NCBI GenBank assembly: GCA_003220615.1
Contig: QHTB01000128.1
Span: 11,839 to 75,838 of the forward strand
Source of the DNA: Candidatus Rokuibacteriota bacterium
Lineage (GTDB): Bacteria > Methylomirabilota > Methylomirabilia > Rokubacteriales > CSP1-6
Direction of reading: 5' to 3'
DNA length: 64,000 bases
The notes under the pieces were generated by a model that did not search any database, had not been told where the DNA came from, and worked only from the letters and a program-made list of their open reading frames with translations. Positions 1,157 through 31,457 of this stretch are shown in pieces. Position numbers and translations under genes: made by a program. How positions within the stretch are numbered: the stretch's first letter is position 1; every line of letters starts with the position of its first letter.

Positions 1157-2172
1157 CGCCGGCCTCGCCCGATCGTGGTTGGGGCGGGAGGATTCGAACC
1201 TCCGAATACGGGATCCAAAGTCCCGCGCCTTGCCGCTTGGCCACGCCCCAGTGAGCTCATGGTACTCGTCCTCATGCGCACGGCCGGCCCGGCCAGTGTC
1301 CGGACCGCCCAGCAGCGCCACGACGCCCGCGTGAGTCGCGCGCGGATCTGGCGCGCGTGCTCGAACGAGCGCGCGACCCCGAACACGGTCGGCCCGCTCC
1401 CCGACATCGCTGCGCCCAGTGCCCCCGCGGCCAGAAGCGCCGCCTTGATCCGCTCGATCTCGGGATGGAGCGGGGCCACGGCCGCCTCGAGGCCATTGTA
1501 AAGGCTCGCCGCCACGCGAGCAGCCTGCCGTGTGCGAAGCAGCTCGGCCAGCTTTCGGGCCCGCGAGCCGTCCGTATACATCGCCGCCGTGACGCGACCA
1601 TACGCCTCGGCCGTGCTGGAGCCGAACGCCGGGTTCACCAGCACGAGCGCCAGCGCGCCGGCGACGACCGGTTCGAGCACTTCGCCACGGCCCGTCCCGA
1701 GCGCGGCACCACTGCGCAGGAAGAACGGCACGTCCATTCCGAGCGCGGTGGCCACTTCGGCGAGCCGGGCCGCCGGCCACCGGAGGCCCCACAGACGGTT
1801 GAGGCCGAGGAGCACGGCGGCGGCATCACTCGATCCACCCCCCAGACCAGCCGCCACCGGGATCCGCTTGTCGAGCGTGATGTGCACACCACGATCGATC
1901 TTCGCCGCCTCCCGCAGGGTCGTGGCGGCACGCAACGCCAGGTTCGTCGCGTCGCAGGGGACTCCGTCGGTGTTCACGGCCAGCCCGAGCCCGGGTGCCT
2001 CGTCGAGGACCAGGCGATCGGAGAGGTCGACGGCCTGCATCACGGTCGCGAGCTCGTGATAGCCGTCGGCACGCTTGCCTCGAATCTCGAGGACCAGGTT
2101 GACCTTGGCCGCGGCGCTGAGCACGAGGCGACGACTCCTCGATCCCTTCGACAAGGCAGGGAAGACTAGCAC
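1153..2172 (-). CDS. ispE: 4-diphosphocytidyl-2-C-methyl-D-erythritol kinase (IspE). The 3' end is uncertain because the frame stays open through tRNA-Gln.
   Basis: GHMP-kinase motifs ([30 protein letters not shown]) and conserved lolB-ispE-prs synteny. The first in-frame stop is at 1153-1155, after the tRNA. Confidence 0.85.
1176..1250 (-). tRNA. tRNA-Gln (anticodon UUG), CCA encoded
   Basis: Read by eye on the minus strand: TGGGGCGTGGCCAAGCGGCAAGGCGCGGGACTTTGGATCCCGTATTCGGAGGTTCGAATCCTCCCGCCCCAACCA. It has a 7-bp acceptor stem with U1-A72, anticodon stem CGGGA/TCCCG with loop CTTTGGA, and T-arm GGAGG-TTCGAAT-CCTCC. Confidence 0.9.
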
Positions 2173-27602: not shown

Positions 27603-29519
27603 GTGCTGATCCAGGCCGAGGGCATCACGAAAGGCTTTGGTGGCCAGGACCTCTTCCAGGATCTCTCCTGGCAGATCACCGGGGGCCAGCGCGTCGGGCT
27701 CGTCGGTCCGAACGGTGCCGGCAAGACCACGCTGTGTCGCATCCTCGCCGGACTCGAGGAGCCAGACGCCGGGCGAGTGAGTCAGTCCCGCGGCGCGACG
27801 GTGGGCTACTTGCCGCAAGACGTCGCGGGCGCCGCCGCGACGTCAGTGCTCGGTGAAGCGCTGAGCGGCTTCGACGAGGTCTGGCGACTCGAGCGCGAGA
27901 TGGAGGAGGTGGCCGCCGCCCTGGCGGCGGCGCCGACCGAGCGACTGACCGAGCAGTACGGCGAGCTCCAGCATCGCTTCGAAGCCCTCGGCGGGTACCG
28001 GCTCGAAACGGAGGCTCGCGCGATCCTCAGTGGTCTCGGCTTCGCGGCGGCCGACCTGGCCCGCCCGCTCGCCGAGCTCTCGGGTGGTTGGCGGATGCGC
28101 GCTGCCCTCGCGCGCCTGCTCCTGTTGAGGCCCTCGCTCCTGCTCCTCGACGAGCCGACGAACCATCTGGATCTCGAGTCGCTGGCCTGGCTGGAGTCGT
28201 TCCTCGCCTCGTACGAGGGCAGCGTGGTGGTCGTGTCTCACGATCGCTACTTCCTGAACCGGATGGTCTCGTCGATCGCCGACCTCGGGCCGGGCGGCAT
28301 TACGCTGTATCCGGGTGACTACGACGATTACCTGGTCGAGCGCGAGGCGCGGCGCGAGCTCCTGGCCGCGCAGGCGCGCAATCAGGCGAAGCGCGTTGCC
28401 GAGATCGAGCGCTTCATCGAGCGCTTCCGGTATCAGGCCACCAAGGCTCGCCAGGTCCAGAGCCGCATCAAAATGCTGGAGCGGATCGACCGCGTCGAAG
28501 TGGAGGCGGAGTCGCGTCGGATCCACTTCTCGTTTCCGGAGCCGCCGCGGACGGGCCGCCGGGTGGCGTCGCTGCACGGCATCCACAAGGCGTACGGCGA
28601 CCTCGTGGTCTACGCTGGCGTCGATCTCGACATCGAGCGGGGCGAAAGGATTGCGCTCGTCGGGGTCAATGGGGCCGGCAAATCGACGATGCTGCGTATC
28701 CTCGCCGGCGTCCTGCCGTTCGACCGCGGCGAGCGGACGCTCGGCGCTCACGTGGTCGCGCACTACTATGCTCAGCACCAGCTCGACACCCTCGATCCCT
28801 CGCGCAGCGTGCTGGAGGAGCTGGAGGTGGTGGCACCCGACGCCGCCCGCACGCGGCTACGCACGATCCTCGGATCGTTCCTGTTCTCGGGCGACACCGT
28901 CGACAAGAAGATCGCGGTGCTCTCCGGTGGGGAGAAGGCGCGGCTGGCCCTGGCCAAGATGCTGACGCGGCCGGCCGCGCTGCTGTGTCTCGACGAGCCC
29001 ACGAACCACCTCGACCTGGTTTCCCGCGAGGTTCTCGAGGCCGCGCTCGCCGGGTTTCCGGGGACCATCGTGTTCATCTCTCACGACCGGTACTTCATCA
29101 ACCGCATCGCCACGAGCGTCGTCGAGGTCGCCGAGGGCCGGTTGGTCACCTATCTCGGTGACTATGACGACTACCTCGCGGCCAAGGCGAGGGTGACCGA
29201 CGCGTCAGCCGCCGGCGATCCGGCCACTTCACGCACACCGACGGCGGACCGGATGCCAAACGCTCGCTCGCGCCCGAAGCCGGGCGTGAGTCGCGAAGTG
29301 CGTGAGCTCCGGCGCCGCCTCGACGAGGTCGAGCGCGAGATCCATGTGCTGGAAGAGCGGCTGACTGGCCTCGGCCGAGCGCTGGGAGATCCGGCGCTGT
29401 ACACCGACGGCGAGCGGGCCCGCGCTGTCGCGCGCGAGCGCAAAGAGGCCGAAGAGCAGGTCACCTGGCTCATGCGGGAGTGGGAGGCGCTCTCCACTGA
29501 GATCGCGACTCATGAATGA
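27603..29519 (+). CDS. ABC-F family ATPase (Uup/YheS-like, two NBDs plus a C-terminal coiled coil)
   Basis: Two Walker A motifs (GPNGAGKTT, GVNGAGKST), two LSGG signatures, no TM segments, and a coiled-coil tail. Confidence 0.9.
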   Translation: MLIQAEGITKGFGGQDLFQDLSWQITGGQRVGLVGPNGAGKTTLCRILAGLEEPDAGRVSQSRGATVGYLPQDVAGAAATSVLGEALSGFDEVWRLEREMEEVAAALAAAPTERLTEQYGELQHRFEALGGYRLETEARAILSGLGFAAADLARPLAELSGGWRMRAALARLLLLRPSLLLLDEPTNHLDLESLAWLESFLASYEGSVVVVSHDRYFLNRMVSSIADLGPGGITLYPGDYDDYLVEREARRELLAAQARNQAKRVAEIERFIERFRYQATKARQVQSRIKMLERIDRVEVEAESRRIHFSFPEPPRTGRRVASLHGIHKAYGDLVVYAGVDLDIERGERIALVGVNGAGKSTMLRILAGVLPFDRGERTLGAHVVAHYYAQHQLDTLDPSRSVLEELEVVAPDAARTRLRTILGSFLFSGDTVDKKIAVLSGGEKARLALAKMLTRPAALLCLDEPTNHLDLVSREVLEAALAGFPGTIVFISHDRYFINRIATSVVEVAEGRLVTYLGDYDDYLAAKARVTDASAAGDPATSRTPTADRMPNARSRPKPGVSREVRELRRRLDEVEREIHVLEERLTGLGRALGDPALYTDGERARAVARERKEAEEQVTWLMREWEALSTEIATHE

Positions 29520-29833
29520 GGTTTCGTGTGAATGAGTTTTACGCGCCCGTCGATCCTGGTGTGCTGCGTCGTGAGCGGGCGCGCGCCCGGGAGCTTCGCG
29601 AGAGTGGCTGGTGGAAGCGGAAGCTGTCGACGGGCATCTGCTACTACTGCCGACGGCGAGTCGGTACGCGCGCCCTCACCATGGATCACATCGTTCCGCT
29701 CGGGCGCGGCGGTCGTAGCGTGCGCGGCAACGTGGTTCCCGCCTGCAAGGACTGCAACAACCGCAAGCAATCGTCGTTGCCAGTCGAGTGGCAGGATTAT
29801 CTGACCTCGCTCGGCAGCGTCTCCGAGGAGTGA
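29516..29833 (+). CDS. Small HNH endonuclease
   Basis: CYYCRRRV...MDHIVPLGRGGRSVRGNVVPACKDCNNRK (HNH motif with Cys pairs). The ATG overlaps the ABC-F stop (ATGA). Confidence 0.8.
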   Translation: MRFRVNEFYAPVDPGVLRRERARARELRESGWWKRKLSTGICYYCRRRVGTRALTMDHIVPLGRGGRSVRGNVVPACKDCNNRKQSSLPVEWQDYLTSLGSVSEE

Positions 29834-29938: not shown

Positions 29939-30256
29939 ATGATTCACCGAGCCGTTGTCCTCGCCGCTCTGACTGTTGTGCCGTTCGTTCCCGTGGCCGG
30001 CGCCGAGACCGAGCGGGCCCCGTCCGGCCGCCATCAGGAGAAGGCCGCGGTCACCGATCATCCCGCGATCAACATCAACACCGCCGACGTGAAGTCGTTG
30101 ATGACGCTCGACGGCGTGGGGCGCAAGGTCGCCGAAAAAATCGTCGAGTACCGGGAAGCGCACGGTCCGTTCAAGAAGCCTGACGACGTCCGCAAGGTGG
30201 ACGGCATCGGCGGCGGACTGTGGGAACGCAATCGGGAACGGATCGTCGTGAAGTAA
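29939..30256 (+). CDS. comEA: ComEA-like helix-hairpin-helix DNA-binding protein with signal peptide
   Basis: Signal-like N-terminus, then ININTADVKSLMTLDGVGRKVAEKIVEYREAHGPFKKPDDVRKVDGIG. Confidence 0.8.
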   Translation: MIHRAVVLAALTVVPFVPVAGAETERAPSGRHQEKAAVTDHPAININTADVKSLMTLDGVGRKVAEKIVEYREAHGPFKKPDDVRKVDGIGGGLWERNRERIVVK

Positions 30257-30309
30257 AGCGCACGGACTTTTGCTTGGGCGACCGCGCAGGCTGCGGTAGG
30301 ATGTGGGCA

Positions 30310-30646
30310 AATCGGTCGGAGCGTCAACAGCGTTCCAGCAGCGTCCCCGCCGACAATTCCGCCGGCGGTTGAGCGTGACCGAGCCTGGGGCCGGGAGTCG
30401 GCATCCGGTTCGAGGGAGTGGGACTGGGCCCGCGTGGCGCCCTTGCCGAGATAGGAGGTGATCCAGCCGATGTGTAACCCTACGGTGATCTGTGAGGTGG
30501 AGGCCTCCTAGGCAACGACCACGCTAGCTCTGGGTGGCGAGCCTGGGAGAACCAGGCACCACCGGCCCCGACGACCCCGCCTCACCAGCGGGGCGACGCG
30601 TAGCACTGAAAAGAGCGTCGCAGCCCTCGTCGGGGCTTCTTTTTTT
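30310..30646 (+). ncRNA. Candidate structured non-coding RNA of unknown class (5' end is a guess)
   Basis: No credible ORF. Several strong local hairpins, e.g. GGTGG..CCTGG-GAGAA-CCAGG..CCACC at 30533-30563 and the GGAGGCCTCC palindrome at 30499-30508. A weak promoter-like TTGGGC-N17-TAGGAT at 30274-30302 and a terminator at 30622-30646. There is no + strand gene downstream. Confidence 0.4.
30622..30646 (+). terminator. Intrinsic terminator (+ strand)
   Basis: AGCCC-TCGTCG-GGGCT followed by TCTTTTTTT. Confidence 0.6.
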
Positions 30647-30661
30647 CAATGACGGCGAAGT

Positions 30662-30701
30662 GGCGATAACAGAACGGCCCGCCGGGAGCTCCGGCGGGCC
30701 G
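30662..30701 (-). terminator. Terminator hairpin downstream of cold-shock gene 1
   Basis: An 11-bp perfect stem CGGCCCGCCGG / CCGGCGGGCCG (30675-30701), followed on the minus strand by TTCTGTTAT. Confidence 0.45.
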
Positions 30702-30736: not shown

Positions 30737-30937
30737 TTAGACCTTTCGGACGTTGGACGCCTGCAGCCCCTTGGGCCCCTTGGTGACCTCGAATTCCACC
30801 TTGTCGCCCTCGCTCAGGCTCTTGAAGCCCTGGGCCTGAATTGCGCTGTAGTGAACGAACACGTCCTCGCCGCCCTCGACCTGGATAAAGCCGTATCCCT
30901 TCGCGTCGTTAAACCACTTCACCGTGCCTTGTGCCAT
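30737..30937 (-). CDS. Cold-shock protein (CspA family), copy 1
   Basis: [34 protein letters not shown]... with RNP1 (KGYGFI) and RNP2 (VFVHY). Confidence 0.95.
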
Positions 30938-31138: not shown

Positions 31139-31168
31139 ACTTTACAATGGTCAAAAAAACACTGTCAA
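31139..31168 (-). promoter_or_regulatory. Sigma-70-type promoter candidate for cold-shock gene 1
   Basis: Minus strand TTGACA (31168-31163), N18, TAAAGT (31144-31139). This implies a leader of about 190 nt. Confidence 0.55.
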
Positions 31169-31256: not shown

Positions 31257-31457
31257 TCAGACTTTTCTGACGTTAGCGGCCTGGAGACCCTTGGGGCCGC
31301 GCGTGACGTCGAACTCGACGCTGTCGCCCTCGGCCAGGGTTTTGAAGCCCTGGGCCTGGATCGCAGTGTAGTGAACGAACACGTCCTCGCCGCCGTCCTG
31401 CGTGATGAAACCGTACCCCTTGGCCTCGTTGAACCACTTCACTCGTCCGTTTGCCAT
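31257..31457 (-). CDS. Cold-shock protein (CspA family), copy 2
   Basis: [34 protein letters not shown]... A close paralogue of copy 1. Confidence 0.95.

What the first reader, a model, noticed from the sequence alone, without database searches (positions are those of the whole stretch)
30257..30650. Orphan, structured, terminator-capped ~340-nt noncoding region between comEA and the csp genes
Seen in sequence: about 390 nt contain no credible ORF. The only ORF-track entry reads straight through a terminator. The region ends in a canonical + strand terminator (5-bp stem AGCCC/GGGCT plus TCTTTTTTT), although no + strand gene follows, since the next genes are on the minus strand. Several strong hairpins are present:
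- the nested GGTGG/CCTGG...CCAGG/CCACC helix at 30533-30563
- CCCCGC-N7-GCGGGG
- CCGCCG-N10-CGGCGG
I could not match the region to tmRNA, RNase P, SRP RNA, 6S RNA or any riboswitch I know. Inference: it is an independently transcribed structured RNA of unknown class.
Basis: partly seen in the sequence, partly recalled or inferred. Interest (0 to 1): 0.6.

Follow-up and report, generated by a model that had tools for sequence, protein, structure and literature searches.

The report
Ribosome-docking small RNA with mini-ORF
The "orphan non-coding region" is a real, conserved, stand-alone gene for a folded RNA of about 335 bases. Its core is a 13-codon reading frame behind a 17-base perfect match to the ribosome's mRNA-docking tail, a kind of RNA already seen in other bacteria but with no known function.

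Summary
Window 30309-30646 (+) is a single-copy RNA gene with its own conserved sigma-70-type promoter and intrinsic terminator. It is present in 39 of 41 relatives. Its core motif occurs in 170 of 251 genomes of the phylum (Methylomirabilota; the window is a Rokubacteriales MAG).

RNase P, tmRNA, 6S and SRP RNAs lie elsewhere in the genome.

The RNA is not simply "non-coding of unknown class". Its most conserved part has four elements:
- a 17-nt perfect complement of the genome's own 16S rRNA 3' end;
- a 13-codon mini-ORF (MCNPTVICEVEAS) whose start, frame and stop are kept in 114 of 114 distinct relatives, while the peptide varies;
- a second SD-like site;
- an internal anti-SD copy that masks the first SD.

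This core is shared with the actinobacterial sRNA Ms_IGR-5 (RF02471; best genome-wide hit, but below threshold). Its design matches the published rreB/rreR "extended-SD small mRNAs". Here it carries an extra ~125-nt 5' domain (P1-P3).

The function is unknown. The likeliest mechanism is 30S docking that opens a masked mini-ORF.

The scan has found this kind before on other genomes.

The parts
30274..30302 (+). Sigma-70-type promoter: -35 TTGGGC (30274-30279), 17-nt spacer, -10 TAGGAT (30297-30302), with a T-rich stretch upstream
   Evidence: TAGGAT/TACGAT/TAGCAT is kept at the same place in nearly all Rokubacteriales relatives. A strict TTGnnn-N16-19-TAnnnT pattern is matched in 30 of 52 upstream regions; most others have TAGACA or CTGGAC as -35. 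The generic promoter scan did not call it. The transcription start is inferred at about 30308-30311.
30309..30646 (+). Whole predicted RNA, about 335 nt
   Evidence: Conserved single-copy block in 39/41 relatives at 71-87% nucleotide identity. G-U pairs in conserved helices become A-C on the other strand, which fixes the + strand.
30312..30433 (+). 5' domain. P1 (TCGGTC 30312-30317 with GACCGA 30377-30382) encloses hairpins P1a (30318-30336) and P1b (30347-30368). P2 hairpin (30383-30416) has the conserved loop AGUCGGCR. P3 hairpin is at 30418-30433.
   Evidence: Compensatory changes in P1 (GC/AU 34/13; CG/UA 24/23) and P2 (CG/UA/GC 21/10/10; GU/CG 25/17). Model R2 finds this domain once in the own genome (105.6 bits). 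Elsewhere it is found only directly upstream of the mini-ORF module in long forms of other phyla.
30432..30447 (+). P4, 5' strand (GCGTGG..CCCTTGCC) of the helix that closes the mini-ORF module
   Evidence: It pairs with 30511-30524. Clade-specific complementary sequences are CCUUGCC/GGCAGGG, GGGUGCGC/GCGCACCC, CCGGGCC/GGCCCGG and GGUGCGUGCGC/GCGCGCACC. Shuffle z-scores are weak in this GC-rich RNA.
30453..30469 (+). SD1: AGGAGGTGATCCAGCCG, a 17-nt perfect complement of the genome's own 16S rRNA 3' end
   Evidence: The own 16S 3' end reads ...CGGCTGGATCACCTCCTTTCT (G000:C97, locus L163). The GGAGGTGRTCC block is invariant in relatives.
30470..30511 (+). Mini-ORF ATG..TAG, 13 codons, MCNPTVICEVEAS
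   Evidence: In 114/114 distinct cores there is an in-frame start 1-7 nt after the SD block and a stop exactly 6 codons after TGT; the +1 frame has a start in only 13/114. Indels are multiples of 3, and a 1-nt deletion is compensated by an ATG-to-GTG start shift.
30494..30500 (+). SD2: GAGGTGG inside the invariant TGTGAGGTGG, a second 16S-tail-complementary site 8 nt before the stop codon
   Evidence: TGTGAGGTGG is invariant, wobble positions included, in all 39 BLAST-found relatives. It is upper case in the Ms_IGR-5 consensus. Duplex with the 16S tail is -11.1 kcal/mol.
30504..30509 (+). Internal anti-SD copy CCTCCT, overlapping the last two sense codons and the first base of TAG; it pairs with SD1
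   Evidence: All 7 pairs AGGAGGU/RCCUCCU can form in 46-47 of 47 sequences. The pairing appears in the minimum-energy fold of 13 of 16 representative modules. Changes are on one side only, so covariation is uninformative.
30511..30524 (+). P4, 3' strand (GGCAACGACCACGC)
   Evidence: See P4 5' strand.
30533..30563 (+). P5 hairpin GGTGG-CGA-GCCTGG-GAGAA-CCAGGC-A-CCACC
   Evidence: GGUGG/CCACC forms in 47/47, with GGUAG/CUACC in L119. The inner helix shows GUUUGG/CCAGAC in L102.
30566..30635 (+). P6 terminator domain: long stem CCCCGACGA/TCGTCGGGG enclosing P6a (30575-30593, conserved loop CUCACCA) and P6b (30593-30621)
   Evidence: 5 of 9 P6 pairs, 2 of 5 P6a pairs and 6 of 7 P6b pairs have changes on both sides.
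30636..30646 (+). U-tract CTTCTTTTTTT of the intrinsic terminator
   Evidence: A T-rich tail follows the stem in all relatives.

Best explanation
This is an independently transcribed gene for a structured RNA of about 335 nt. It is a long-form relative of the actinobacterial sRNA Ms_IGR-5, built on the same plan as the rreB/rreR 'extended Shine-Dalgarno small mRNAs'.

Anatomy (shown by comparison):
- a conserved promoter;
- a 5' domain of about 125 nt (P1 three-way junction, P2, P3);
- a module closed by helix P4 that holds a 17-nt perfect complement of the 16S rRNA 3' end (SD1), a 13-codon mini-ORF starting immediately after it, a second SD-like site (SD2) 8 nt before the stop, and a copy of the anti-SD (CCUCCU) over the stop codon;
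- hairpin P5;
- a branched terminator domain, P6.

How it most likely works (inferred):
1. In the free RNA, SD1 is masked by the internal anti-SD.
2. A 30S subunit, whose tail pairs far more strongly with SD1, invades and opens the module. The released anti-SD copy then re-pairs with SD2.
3. The mini-ORF is translated weakly. Translation, not the peptide, is the selected event.
4. Ribosome docking and translation set the RNA's fold and lifetime, as was shown experimentally for rreB.

The cellular output is unknown.
For: Gene status:
- One copy per genome, found in 39/41 relatives.
- The core pattern occurs in 170/251 genomes of the phylum, with 0 hits for the reversed control.
- The -10 element is conserved and the terminator covaries.

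Structure:
- On alignment A2, 96.7% of cells are paired against 33-56% when partners are slid.
- 16 pairs have double changes against 2-6 in slid controls, and 0/500 shuffles reach the observed values.
- P1 and P2 covary.

SD1 is a 17-nt perfect complement of the own 16S 3' end.

ORF selection:
- 114/114 in-frame start and fixed stop, against 13/114 in the +1 frame.
- Indels are multiples of 3, and an ATG-to-GTG shift compensates a 1-nt deletion.
- The N-terminal residues vary freely.
- UGU GAG GUG is invariant at wobble positions in the BLAST-found relatives.
- One lineage has GGU in place of UGU. The constraint is therefore on the RNA and on the act of translation, not on the peptide.

Masking and switch:
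- SD1/anti-SD pairs can form in 46-47/47 sequences and appear in 13/16 minimum-energy folds.
- Opening the module costs about 14 kcal/mol (-40.2 to -25.8).
- Pairing to the free 16S tail yields -27.2 kcal/mol.
- In the opened fold, SD2 pairs with the anti-SD copy.

Kinship:
- RF02471's best hit in the whole genome is this locus.
- The core and the ORF geometry are identical in Mycobacterium, Streptomyces, Pseudonocardia and others.

Experimental precedents:
- rreB binds 30S, is weakly translated, and is stabilised when its start codon is removed (PMC5711450).
- Ms_IGR-5 is transcribed in Streptomyces and carries ribosome footprints in mycobacteria (PMC8079986, PMC8780764, PMC4974804).
Against:
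- SD1, SD2 and the anti-SD copy are nearly invariant, so their pairings cannot be proven by covariation.
- RNAalifold proposes a competing long-range pairing, CGGUG with CACCG.
- The single-sequence fold is not better than shuffles.
- The Rfam score is half the gathering score. Reciprocal model R1 scores actinobacterial loci at only 18-41 bits, about what the shared 21-nt motif alone would give, and those loci were selected by that motif.
- rreB overexpression gave no growth phenotype (PMC5711450), so a simple ribosome-sequestering role is unlikely.
- The role of the 5' domain is unexplained.
Confidence: 0.6

Rival explanations
1. It is an ordinary small-protein gene. The 13-residue peptide (MCNPTVICEVEAS) is the functional product, and the rest is a structured 5' and 3' UTR.
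For: The reading frame, start and stop are maintained in 114/114 relatives. The C-terminal C-E-V-(V/A)-x-(S/R) is widely kept. The rre authors treat RreB and RreR as small proteins conserved within clades (PMC5711450).
Against: Residues 2-7 change freely between close relatives. The conserved C-terminal codons are invariant at synonymous sites too: TGT never TGC, GAG never GAA, GTG never GTN in the BLAST-found relatives, despite high GC. One lineage replaces Cys by Gly yet keeps GUGAGGUG. Synthetic RreB and RreR were unstructured, and overproduction had no phenotype (PMC5711450). About 290 of 335 nt lie outside the ORF, yet they are conserved and covary.
Confidence: 0.15
2. It is a purely non-coding structured RNA of a new class. 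The SD-like sequence and the mini-ORF are by-products of structural constraints.
For: There is extensive covarying structure and no Rfam family at gathering score. The nucleotide-level invariance of the core exceeds what a peptide needs.
Against: The start codon is always in frame (114/114 against 13/114 in the +1 frame). Indels are multiples of 3. A start-codon shift compensates a 1-nt deletion. The stop is always 6 codons after UGU across six or more phyla. SD1 is a 17-nt perfect match to the 16S tail. Ms_IGR-5 shows ribosome footprints (PMC4974804).
Confidence: 0.1
3. It is a cis element of a neighbouring gene: a 3' UTR of comEA, a leader or attenuator, or an antisense or UTR element of the csp genes.
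For: In family f1 the order HNH - comEA - RNA - csp (convergent) is conserved. The mini-ORF plus terminator recalls a leader-peptide attenuator.
Against: No co-directional gene follows the terminator. In family f4 comEA is absent and csp is not adjacent, and in other phyla none of these neighbours is present, yet the RNA persists. A conserved promoter lies between comEA and the RNA. The csp gene has its own terminator before the region.
Confidence: 0.04
4. It is a relic or mimic of the 16S rRNA 3' end read on the minus strand (an rRNA fragment or pseudogene).
For: Window 30449-30485 is about 84% identical to the reverse complement of 16S helix 45 plus tail. A BLAST search against plasmids returns only rRNA gene ends.
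Against: The similarity beyond the 17-nt block is not conserved in other families. The promoter, the terminator and the G-U pairs all fix the + strand. No other rRNA-like sequence flanks it. The genome's true 16S end is on another contig.
Confidence: 0.02

Closest known systems
Ms_IGR-5 (Rfam RF02471), actinobacterial sRNA first reported in Mycobacterium smegmatis
   Same: The core GGAGGUGRUCC - hairpin holding the start codon - UGUGAGGUGG is shared. The mini-ORF geometry is the same: start 1-7 nt after the SD block, and stop 3 codons after GUG. A CACC-rich segment precedes a terminator hairpin in both, and about 200 nt run from the SD to the terminator. RF02471's best hit in this genome is this locus.
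   Different: The score is 22.5 bits against a gathering score of 45. The phylum differs (Methylomirabilota). There is an extra ~125-nt 5' domain (P1-P3) followed by closing helix P4 upstream of the SD. There is an internal CCUCCU anti-SD copy over the stop codon, which actinobacterial copies lack. The SD complement is extended to 17 nt.
rreB / rreR 'ribosome-regulated expression' small mRNAs of Alphaproteobacteria (Hahn et al., RNA Biol 2017, PMC5711450)
   Same: It is a stand-alone small transcript with a 16-17-nt perfect complement of the 16S 3' end directly in front of a 14-18-codon sORF. The SD is partly buried in a hairpin. For rreB, 30S binding, weak translation and start-codon-dependent decay were shown. 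The function is unknown.
   Different: No sequence homology was demonstrated. Rfam CC2171 (RF01867) scores 14.6 bits at another place. An Azospirillum plasmid locus with the extended SD has a long ORF and no SD2 motif. rreB is 165 nt and has no 5' domain. The relation is therefore one of design, not shown descent.
Dual-function sRNAs (SgrS/SgrT, RNAIII/delta-haemolysin, SR1/SR1P)
   Same: It is a structured small RNA that also carries a short translated ORF.
   Different: In those RNAs the peptide is conserved and functional, and the RNA has defined antisense seed regions. Here the peptide drifts and no target seed is known.
CreT-type mini-ORF RNA toxins (PMC8501985, PMC10097628)
   Same: It is a small RNA whose activity resides in a strong SD plus a mini-ORF that engages the translation apparatus rather than in a protein product.
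   Different: CreT is guarded by a CRISPR-derived antitoxin and uses rare codons or initiation factors as its target. This RNA is a single-copy, vertically conserved gene. It is not next to the CRISPR-derived guard RNA that accompanies creT, and it has no rare-codon run.
tmRNA
   Same: It is a structured RNA with an internal short ORF that acts on the ribosome.
   Different: tmRNA has a tRNA-like domain, has no SD or start codon, and is encoded elsewhere in this genome (179 bits at C131).

Membership tests
Ms_IGR-5 (RF02471) | Covariance-model score at or above the Rfam gathering score (45 bits) | tested here: not met
   22.5 bits, E = 0.005 on 651 nt. E = 0.011 as the best hit in the whole 5.86-Mb genome.
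Ms_IGR-5 (RF02471) | Conserved core AGGAGGUGRUCC ... UGUGAGGUGG with an embedded mini-ORF | tested here: met
   The motif and ORF geometry are identical in this RNA and in Mycobacterium, Streptomyces, Kitasatospora, Pseudonocardia, Brachybacterium and Microlunatus loci.
Ms_IGR-5 (RF02471) | sRNA of about 180 nt that begins about 12 nt upstream of the SD | tested here: not met
   Here about 140 nt of conserved, covarying structure precede the SD. Model R2 of this domain finds nothing in actinobacterial loci.
Ms_IGR-5 (RF02471) | Detected as a discrete transcript | not testable with these tools
Only the promoter and terminator are predicted.
rre small mRNAs (rreB/rreR) | [quoted passage not shown] | tested here: met
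   AGGAGGTGATCCAGCCG (30453-30469) against the own 16S end ...CGGCTGGATCACCTCCTTTCT.
rre small mRNAs (rreB/rreR) | A short sORF (14-18 codons in the described cases) starting at the end of the complementarity region | tested here: met
   ATG at 30470 directly follows the 17-mer. The ORF has 13 codons, and its frame is conserved in 114/114 relatives.
rre small mRNAs (rreB/rreR) | Strong 30S binding, weak translation, start-codon-dependent turnover | not testable with these tools
   Only energetics were computed: -27.2 kcal/mol with the free 16S tail, against about 14 kcal/mol to open the module.
rre small mRNAs (rreB/rreR) | Sequence or structure homology to described members (Rfam CC2171, RF01867) | tested here: not met
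   RF01867 scores 14.6 bits, E = 1, at 30600-30701, not over the SD or ORF. The Azospirillum p4 extended-SD locus lacks SD2 and the short ORF.
Housekeeping RNAs (RNase P, tmRNA, 6S, SRP) | Match to the family covariance model | tested here: not met
   There is no hit in the window region. All four are found elsewhere in the genome at 308, 179, 79 and 72 bits.
Riboswitch or leader-peptide attenuator | A co-directional regulated gene downstream of the terminator | tested here: not met
   The next genes (csp, 30737-30937 and 31257-31457) are on the opposite strand. Neighbours differ between families and phyla.

The most novel reading that the evidence does not exclude
The RNA is a ribosome-directed regulator, analogous to what 6S RNA is for RNA polymerase. 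Its masked 17-nt SD reads out the availability or integrity of free 16S 3' tails (mature, idle 30S subunits). The lineage-specific 5' domain (P1-P3) is a ligand- or protein-binding sensor that gates helix P4 and so controls access to the docking site. Docking and a single round of mini-ORF translation then flip the SD1/SD2/anti-SD switch. This exposes or destroys a signal in the 3' domain (the UCACC loop and CCACC segment).
Probability: 0.12. Interest if true: 0.85.

Novelty: new variant of a known kind. Interest (0 to 1): 0.5.

Why it matters
RNAs that grip the whole free tail of 16S rRNA and carry a tiny, drifting reading frame now appear in Actinomycetota (Ms_IGR-5) and Alphaproteobacteria (rre). 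They also appear here in Methylomirabilota, and in MAGs labelled Binatia, Thermodesulfobacteriota, Nitrospiria and Terriglobia. No function is known for any of them.

The Rokubacteriales long form adds two features that make the question more testable:
- an explicit SD / anti-SD / second-SD switch;
- a separate conserved 5' domain that occurs only together with the mini-ORF module.

If ribosome docking, rather than the peptide, is the selected activity, this would be a widespread class of RNA that senses or tunes the translation apparatus.

Tried and rejected
- **Known RNA families.** Rfam at gathering score gave nothing. Relaxed thresholds gave only Ms_IGR-5 (sub-threshold) and chance terminator-like hits to CyaR, SgrS and CC2171.
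- **Divergent RNase P, tmRNA, 6S or SRP.** Rejected, because all four are elsewhere in the genome.
- **Single-sequence thermodynamics.** Not significant on either strand.
- **Shuffle z-scores for helix P4.** Weak (mean -0.75) in this GC-rich RNA. P4 rests on clade-specific complementary sequences instead.
- **Pairwise covariation scan of the whole MAFFT alignment.** Dominated by clade structure and misalignment, so not used.
- **RNAalifold's long-range CGGUG/CACCG pairing.** It competes with P5, and invariance prevents a decision.
- **Neighbour analysis by naive ORF calling.** Noisy at high GC. tblastn synteny was used instead. Mycobacterial copies lie between a pabC-like gene and an Rv0813c-like gene (gene names assigned from my own reading of the translated ORFs, not from a database search), which is unrelated to the context here.
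- **Reciprocal model R1 on actinobacterial loci.** It scored 18-41 bits, not independent of the motif used to find them.
- **Link to alphaproteobacterial rre by sequence.** BLAST of the core against plasmids returns only 16S gene ends. The Azospirillum lipoferum p4 extended-SD locus has a long ORF and no SD2.
- **Even sampling of phyla.** The exact core occurred in 2/41 genomes of the phylum of the Binatia genome. In Actinomycetota only the query genome among 61 gave a true match; the relaxed pattern gives chance hits. The RNA is therefore patchy and not universal.
- **Peptide and motif strings in the literature.** Nothing found.
Full report
**What is in the window**

Between comEA (29939-30256, +) and two convergent cspA-type genes (30737-30937 and 31257-31457, -) lies about 480 nt without a conventional ORF. 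A + strand terminator-like hairpin with a T-run ends at 30646. The csp gene has its own minus-strand terminator at 30701-30675, so the region is not its 3' UTR.

Folding this one sequence is not better than folding shuffles (z = -0.96 for the + strand, -0.78 for the - strand). The case therefore has to be made by comparison.

**Conservation**

BLAST of 30257-30650 against 41 related genomes gives one hit per genome in 39 of them. The hits span five families of the order, at 71-87% nucleotide identity over about 350 nt. The own genome has a single copy.

The record titles identify the clade of the window as Candidatus Rokubacteria / Methylomirabilota.

In the phylum, 170 of 251 genomes have the exact core: f1 134/158, f4 18/21, f8 13/15. 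The reversed-pattern control gave none. Families that lack the exact pattern can still have a diverged short form (L164, L165).

**It is a transcription unit on the + strand (predicted)**

Upstream of the conserved block sits TTGGGC-N17-TAGGAT (30274-30302). The -10 hexamer (TAGGAT, TACGAT or TAGCAT) and a T- or A-rich upstream stretch are kept at the same place in the relatives.

Conserved helices contain many G-U pairs, for example 40/49, 38/49 and 40/49 in P2 and 27/47 in the SD helix. These would be A-C mismatches on the other strand.

**Structure**

RNAalifold on 49 sequences predicts 68 pairs, 37 of them with compensatory changes in at least one sequence.

For the 3' two-thirds (alignment A2, 44 hand-placed pairs), one search gives:

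| Measure | This structure | Partners slid by 1-3 columns |
|---|---|---|
| Cells paired | 96.7% | 33-56% |
| Pairs with changes on both sides | 16 | 2-6 |

None of 500 shuffles reaches any observed measure.

The helices, in window coordinates:
- P1: 30312-30317 with 30377-30382, enclosing P1a (30318-30336) and P1b (30347-30368).
- P2: 30383-30416, with the conserved loop AGUCGGCR.
- P3: 30418-30433.
- P4: 30432-30447 with 30511-30524.
- P5: 30533-30563.
- P6: 30566-30574 with 30627-30635, enclosing P6a (30575-30593, loop CUCACCA) and P6b (30593-30621).

P4 is not well aligned by MAFFT, and its shuffle z-scores are weak. It is nevertheless formed by different complementary sequences in different clades: CCUUGCC/GGCAGGG, GGGUGCGC/GCGCACCC, CCGGGCC/GGCCCGG and GGUGCGUGCGC/GCGCGCACC.

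**The core is a ribosome-binding site plus a mini-ORF**

- 30453-30469 (AGGAGGTGATCCAGCCG) is a perfect 17-nt complement of the genome's own 16S rRNA 3' end (...CGGCTGGATCACCTCCTTTCT, on contig C97).
- ATG follows immediately and opens a 13-codon frame, MCNPTVICEVEAS, ending at TAG 30509-30511.
- Among 114 distinct cores from Rokubacteria, other Methylomirabilota, Actinomycetota and MAGs labelled Binatia, Thermodesulfobacteriota, Desulfuromonadales, Nitrospiria and Terriglobia, all 114 share the same geometry. They have an in-frame ATG, GTG or TTG 1-7 nt after the SD block, no stop before TGT GAG GTG, and a stop exactly three codons later.
- In the +1 frame only 13 of 114 have a start.
- Length variants differ by 3 or 6 nt. 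Where one base is lost (CCG ATG TGT to CC GTG TGT), the start shifts so that the frame is kept.

The peptide itself drifts: MCNPTVI-, MSTTPVI-, MIASWT-, MINHRT- and others.

The conserved codons UGU GAG GUG do not vary at wobble positions in the 39 relatives found by BLAST. That set carries no motif bias. One family has GGU for UGU while keeping GUGAGGUG.

What is selected is therefore the RNA sequence and the fact of being translated, not a particular peptide.

**A built-in SD / anti-SD switch**

GAGGUGG inside the invariant UGUGAGGUGG is a second 16S-tail-complementary site (SD2). It lies 8 nt before the stop.

The last codons plus the first base of the stop read RCCUCCU, a copy of the anti-SD. 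All seven pairs between AGGAGGU and RCCUCCU can form in 46-47 of 47 sequences. This helix appears in the minimum-energy fold of 13 of 16 representative modules.

Energies:

| State or duplex | Energy (kcal/mol) |
|---|---|
| Closed module | -40.2 |
| Module with the 17-mer held single-stranded | -25.8 |
| 17-mer with the free 16S tail | -27.2 |
| 17-mer with the tail plus the 3' strand of helix 45 (assumes helix 45 is unfolded) | -40.1 |
| SD1 with the internal anti-SD copy | -16.3 |

In the opened module the anti-SD copy pairs with SD2 instead of SD1. A 30S subunit can thus open the module thermodynamically.

These pairings involve invariant bases and cannot be confirmed by covariation. RNAalifold also offers a competing CGGUG/CACCG pairing.

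**What it is related to**

*Ms_IGR-5.* With relaxed thresholds the only meaningful Rfam match is Ms_IGR-5 (RF02471), end to end over 30444-30645. It scores 22.5 bits against a gathering score of 45. Searched against the entire genome, this locus is that model's best hit (E = 0.011).

Actinobacterial loci share the 21-nt core, the ORF geometry and a CACC-rich segment before the terminator. They lack the 5' domain, P4 and the CCUCCU copy.

Model R1, built from the long form, scores long forms labelled Binatia, Thermodesulfobacteriota, Desulfuromonadales and 'delta proteobacterium' at 63-138 bits. Actinobacterial loci score only 18-41 bits. That is roughly the motif's own contribution, and those loci had been selected by the motif, so it is not independent evidence.

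Model R2 of the 5' domain finds one site in the own genome (105.6 bits). In other phyla it hits significantly (27-71 bits, E 0.004 or lower) only directly upstream of the mini-ORF module, and it finds no significant match in actinobacterial, Nitrospiria or Terriglobia loci or in the short forms. The 5' domain is therefore an integral accretion of the long form, not a free-standing aptamer.

Ms_IGR-5 is a transcribed sRNA in Streptomyces (PMC8079986, PMC8780764). It carries ribosome footprints in M. abscessus and M. smegmatis (PMC4974804).

*rre small mRNAs.* A lead from earlier notes of this scan pointed to Hahn et al. (RNA Biol 2017, PMC5711450), which I read. rreB of Bradyrhizobium is a 165-nt stand-alone mRNA with a 17-nt complement of the 16S tail before a 14-codon sORF. 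It co-sediments with 30S subunits, is weakly translated, and is stabilised when its start codon is replaced by a stop codon. Overexpression had no growth effect, and the function is unknown. The design is the same as here.

I could not show sequence homology. Rfam CC2171 scores 14.6 bits at a different place. The extended-SD locus on Azospirillum lipoferum plasmid p4 has a long ORF and no SD2.

**Context**

In Rokubacteriales a small HNH-type ORF (29516-29833) lies upstream on the same strand, followed by comEA in family f1. A csp gene converges downstream in f1 and f5. None of these neighbours occurs in other phyla. In mycobacteria the RNA sits between pabC-like and Rv0813c-like genes (I named these two genes from my own reading of the translated ORFs, without a database search). 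The RNA is thus an independent gene with local synteny only.

Sampling phyla evenly shows that the exact core is patchy:
- 2/41 genomes in the phylum of the Binatia genome;
- in Actinomycetota, only the query genome among 61 gave a true match.

**Verdict**

The region is independent and structured. It is not non-coding in the strict sense, and it is not of an unknown class.

It is best filed as a long-form variant of the Ms_IGR-5 / rre kind of ribosome-docking mini-mRNA. It fails Rfam membership of RF02471 by score and by architecture.

The mechanism proposed is an inference from structure, energetics and the rreB experiments:
1. A masked super-SD is opened by the 30S tail.
2. The mini-ORF is translated as an event rather than for its product.
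3. An SD2/anti-SD re-pairing follows.

The cellular role is unknown.

Other windows of this scan have yielded the same kind of element. My reading was reached independently before those look-ups, except for the rre literature lead.

Noticed in passing
window 30737-30937 and 31257-31457 (-), with 31139-31168: Two tandem cspA-family cold-shock genes lie on the minus strand. Each follows a long untranslated gap. A near-consensus promoter-like site (TTGACA-18-TAAAGT) sits at 31168-31139, in the gap between the two csp genes, about 200 nt upstream of the nearer one (30737-30937). The arrangement looks like the long structured 5' UTRs typical of csp mRNAs.
   Followed up: no
window 29516-29833 (+): A 105-residue ORF with Cys and His motifs of HNH type sits upstream of the RNA on the same strand in most Rokubacteriales. 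It lies directly upstream in family f4, and with comEA inserted between in family f1.
   Followed up: partly
G195:C9:872364-875000 (relative): One related genome carries two copies of the core in inverted orientation, about 2.5 kb apart. Every other genome has one copy.
   Followed up: no
L164 (G048:C186:10089-10279) and L165 (G093:C1:2132182-2132388): Two other families of the same class have a short form without the 5' domain. It starts ACAC(C/A)AGAAAGGAGG as in Actinobacteria and has GTG directly after GGAGGTGATCCA as in rreB. G048 reads GGTGAGGTG, so the 'conserved' Cys codon is Gly there.
   Followed up: partly
L036 (G028:C401), between the stop-codon hairpin and P5: One relative has an insertion of about 75 nt in the linker between P4 and P5. 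It split the BLAST hit into two pieces.
   Followed up: no
L114 (CAXMSM010000048.1, MAG labelled Gammaproteobacteria): This contig carries a core and flanks of mycobacterial type. It is probably a misbinned actinobacterial contig.
   Followed up: no
window 30449-30485: Beyond the 17-mer, the start-codon hairpin of family f1 resembles the reverse complement of 16S helix 45 (CCCTACGG shared), about 84% over 37 nt. The resemblance is not kept in family f4, so it may be coincidence or lineage-specific.
   Followed up: partly
window 1179-1250 (-) and G000:C132:1380-1760 (outside the window): A tRNA gene lies in the window. The genome's RNase P RNA lies on the same contig, upstream of the window.
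   Followed up: no
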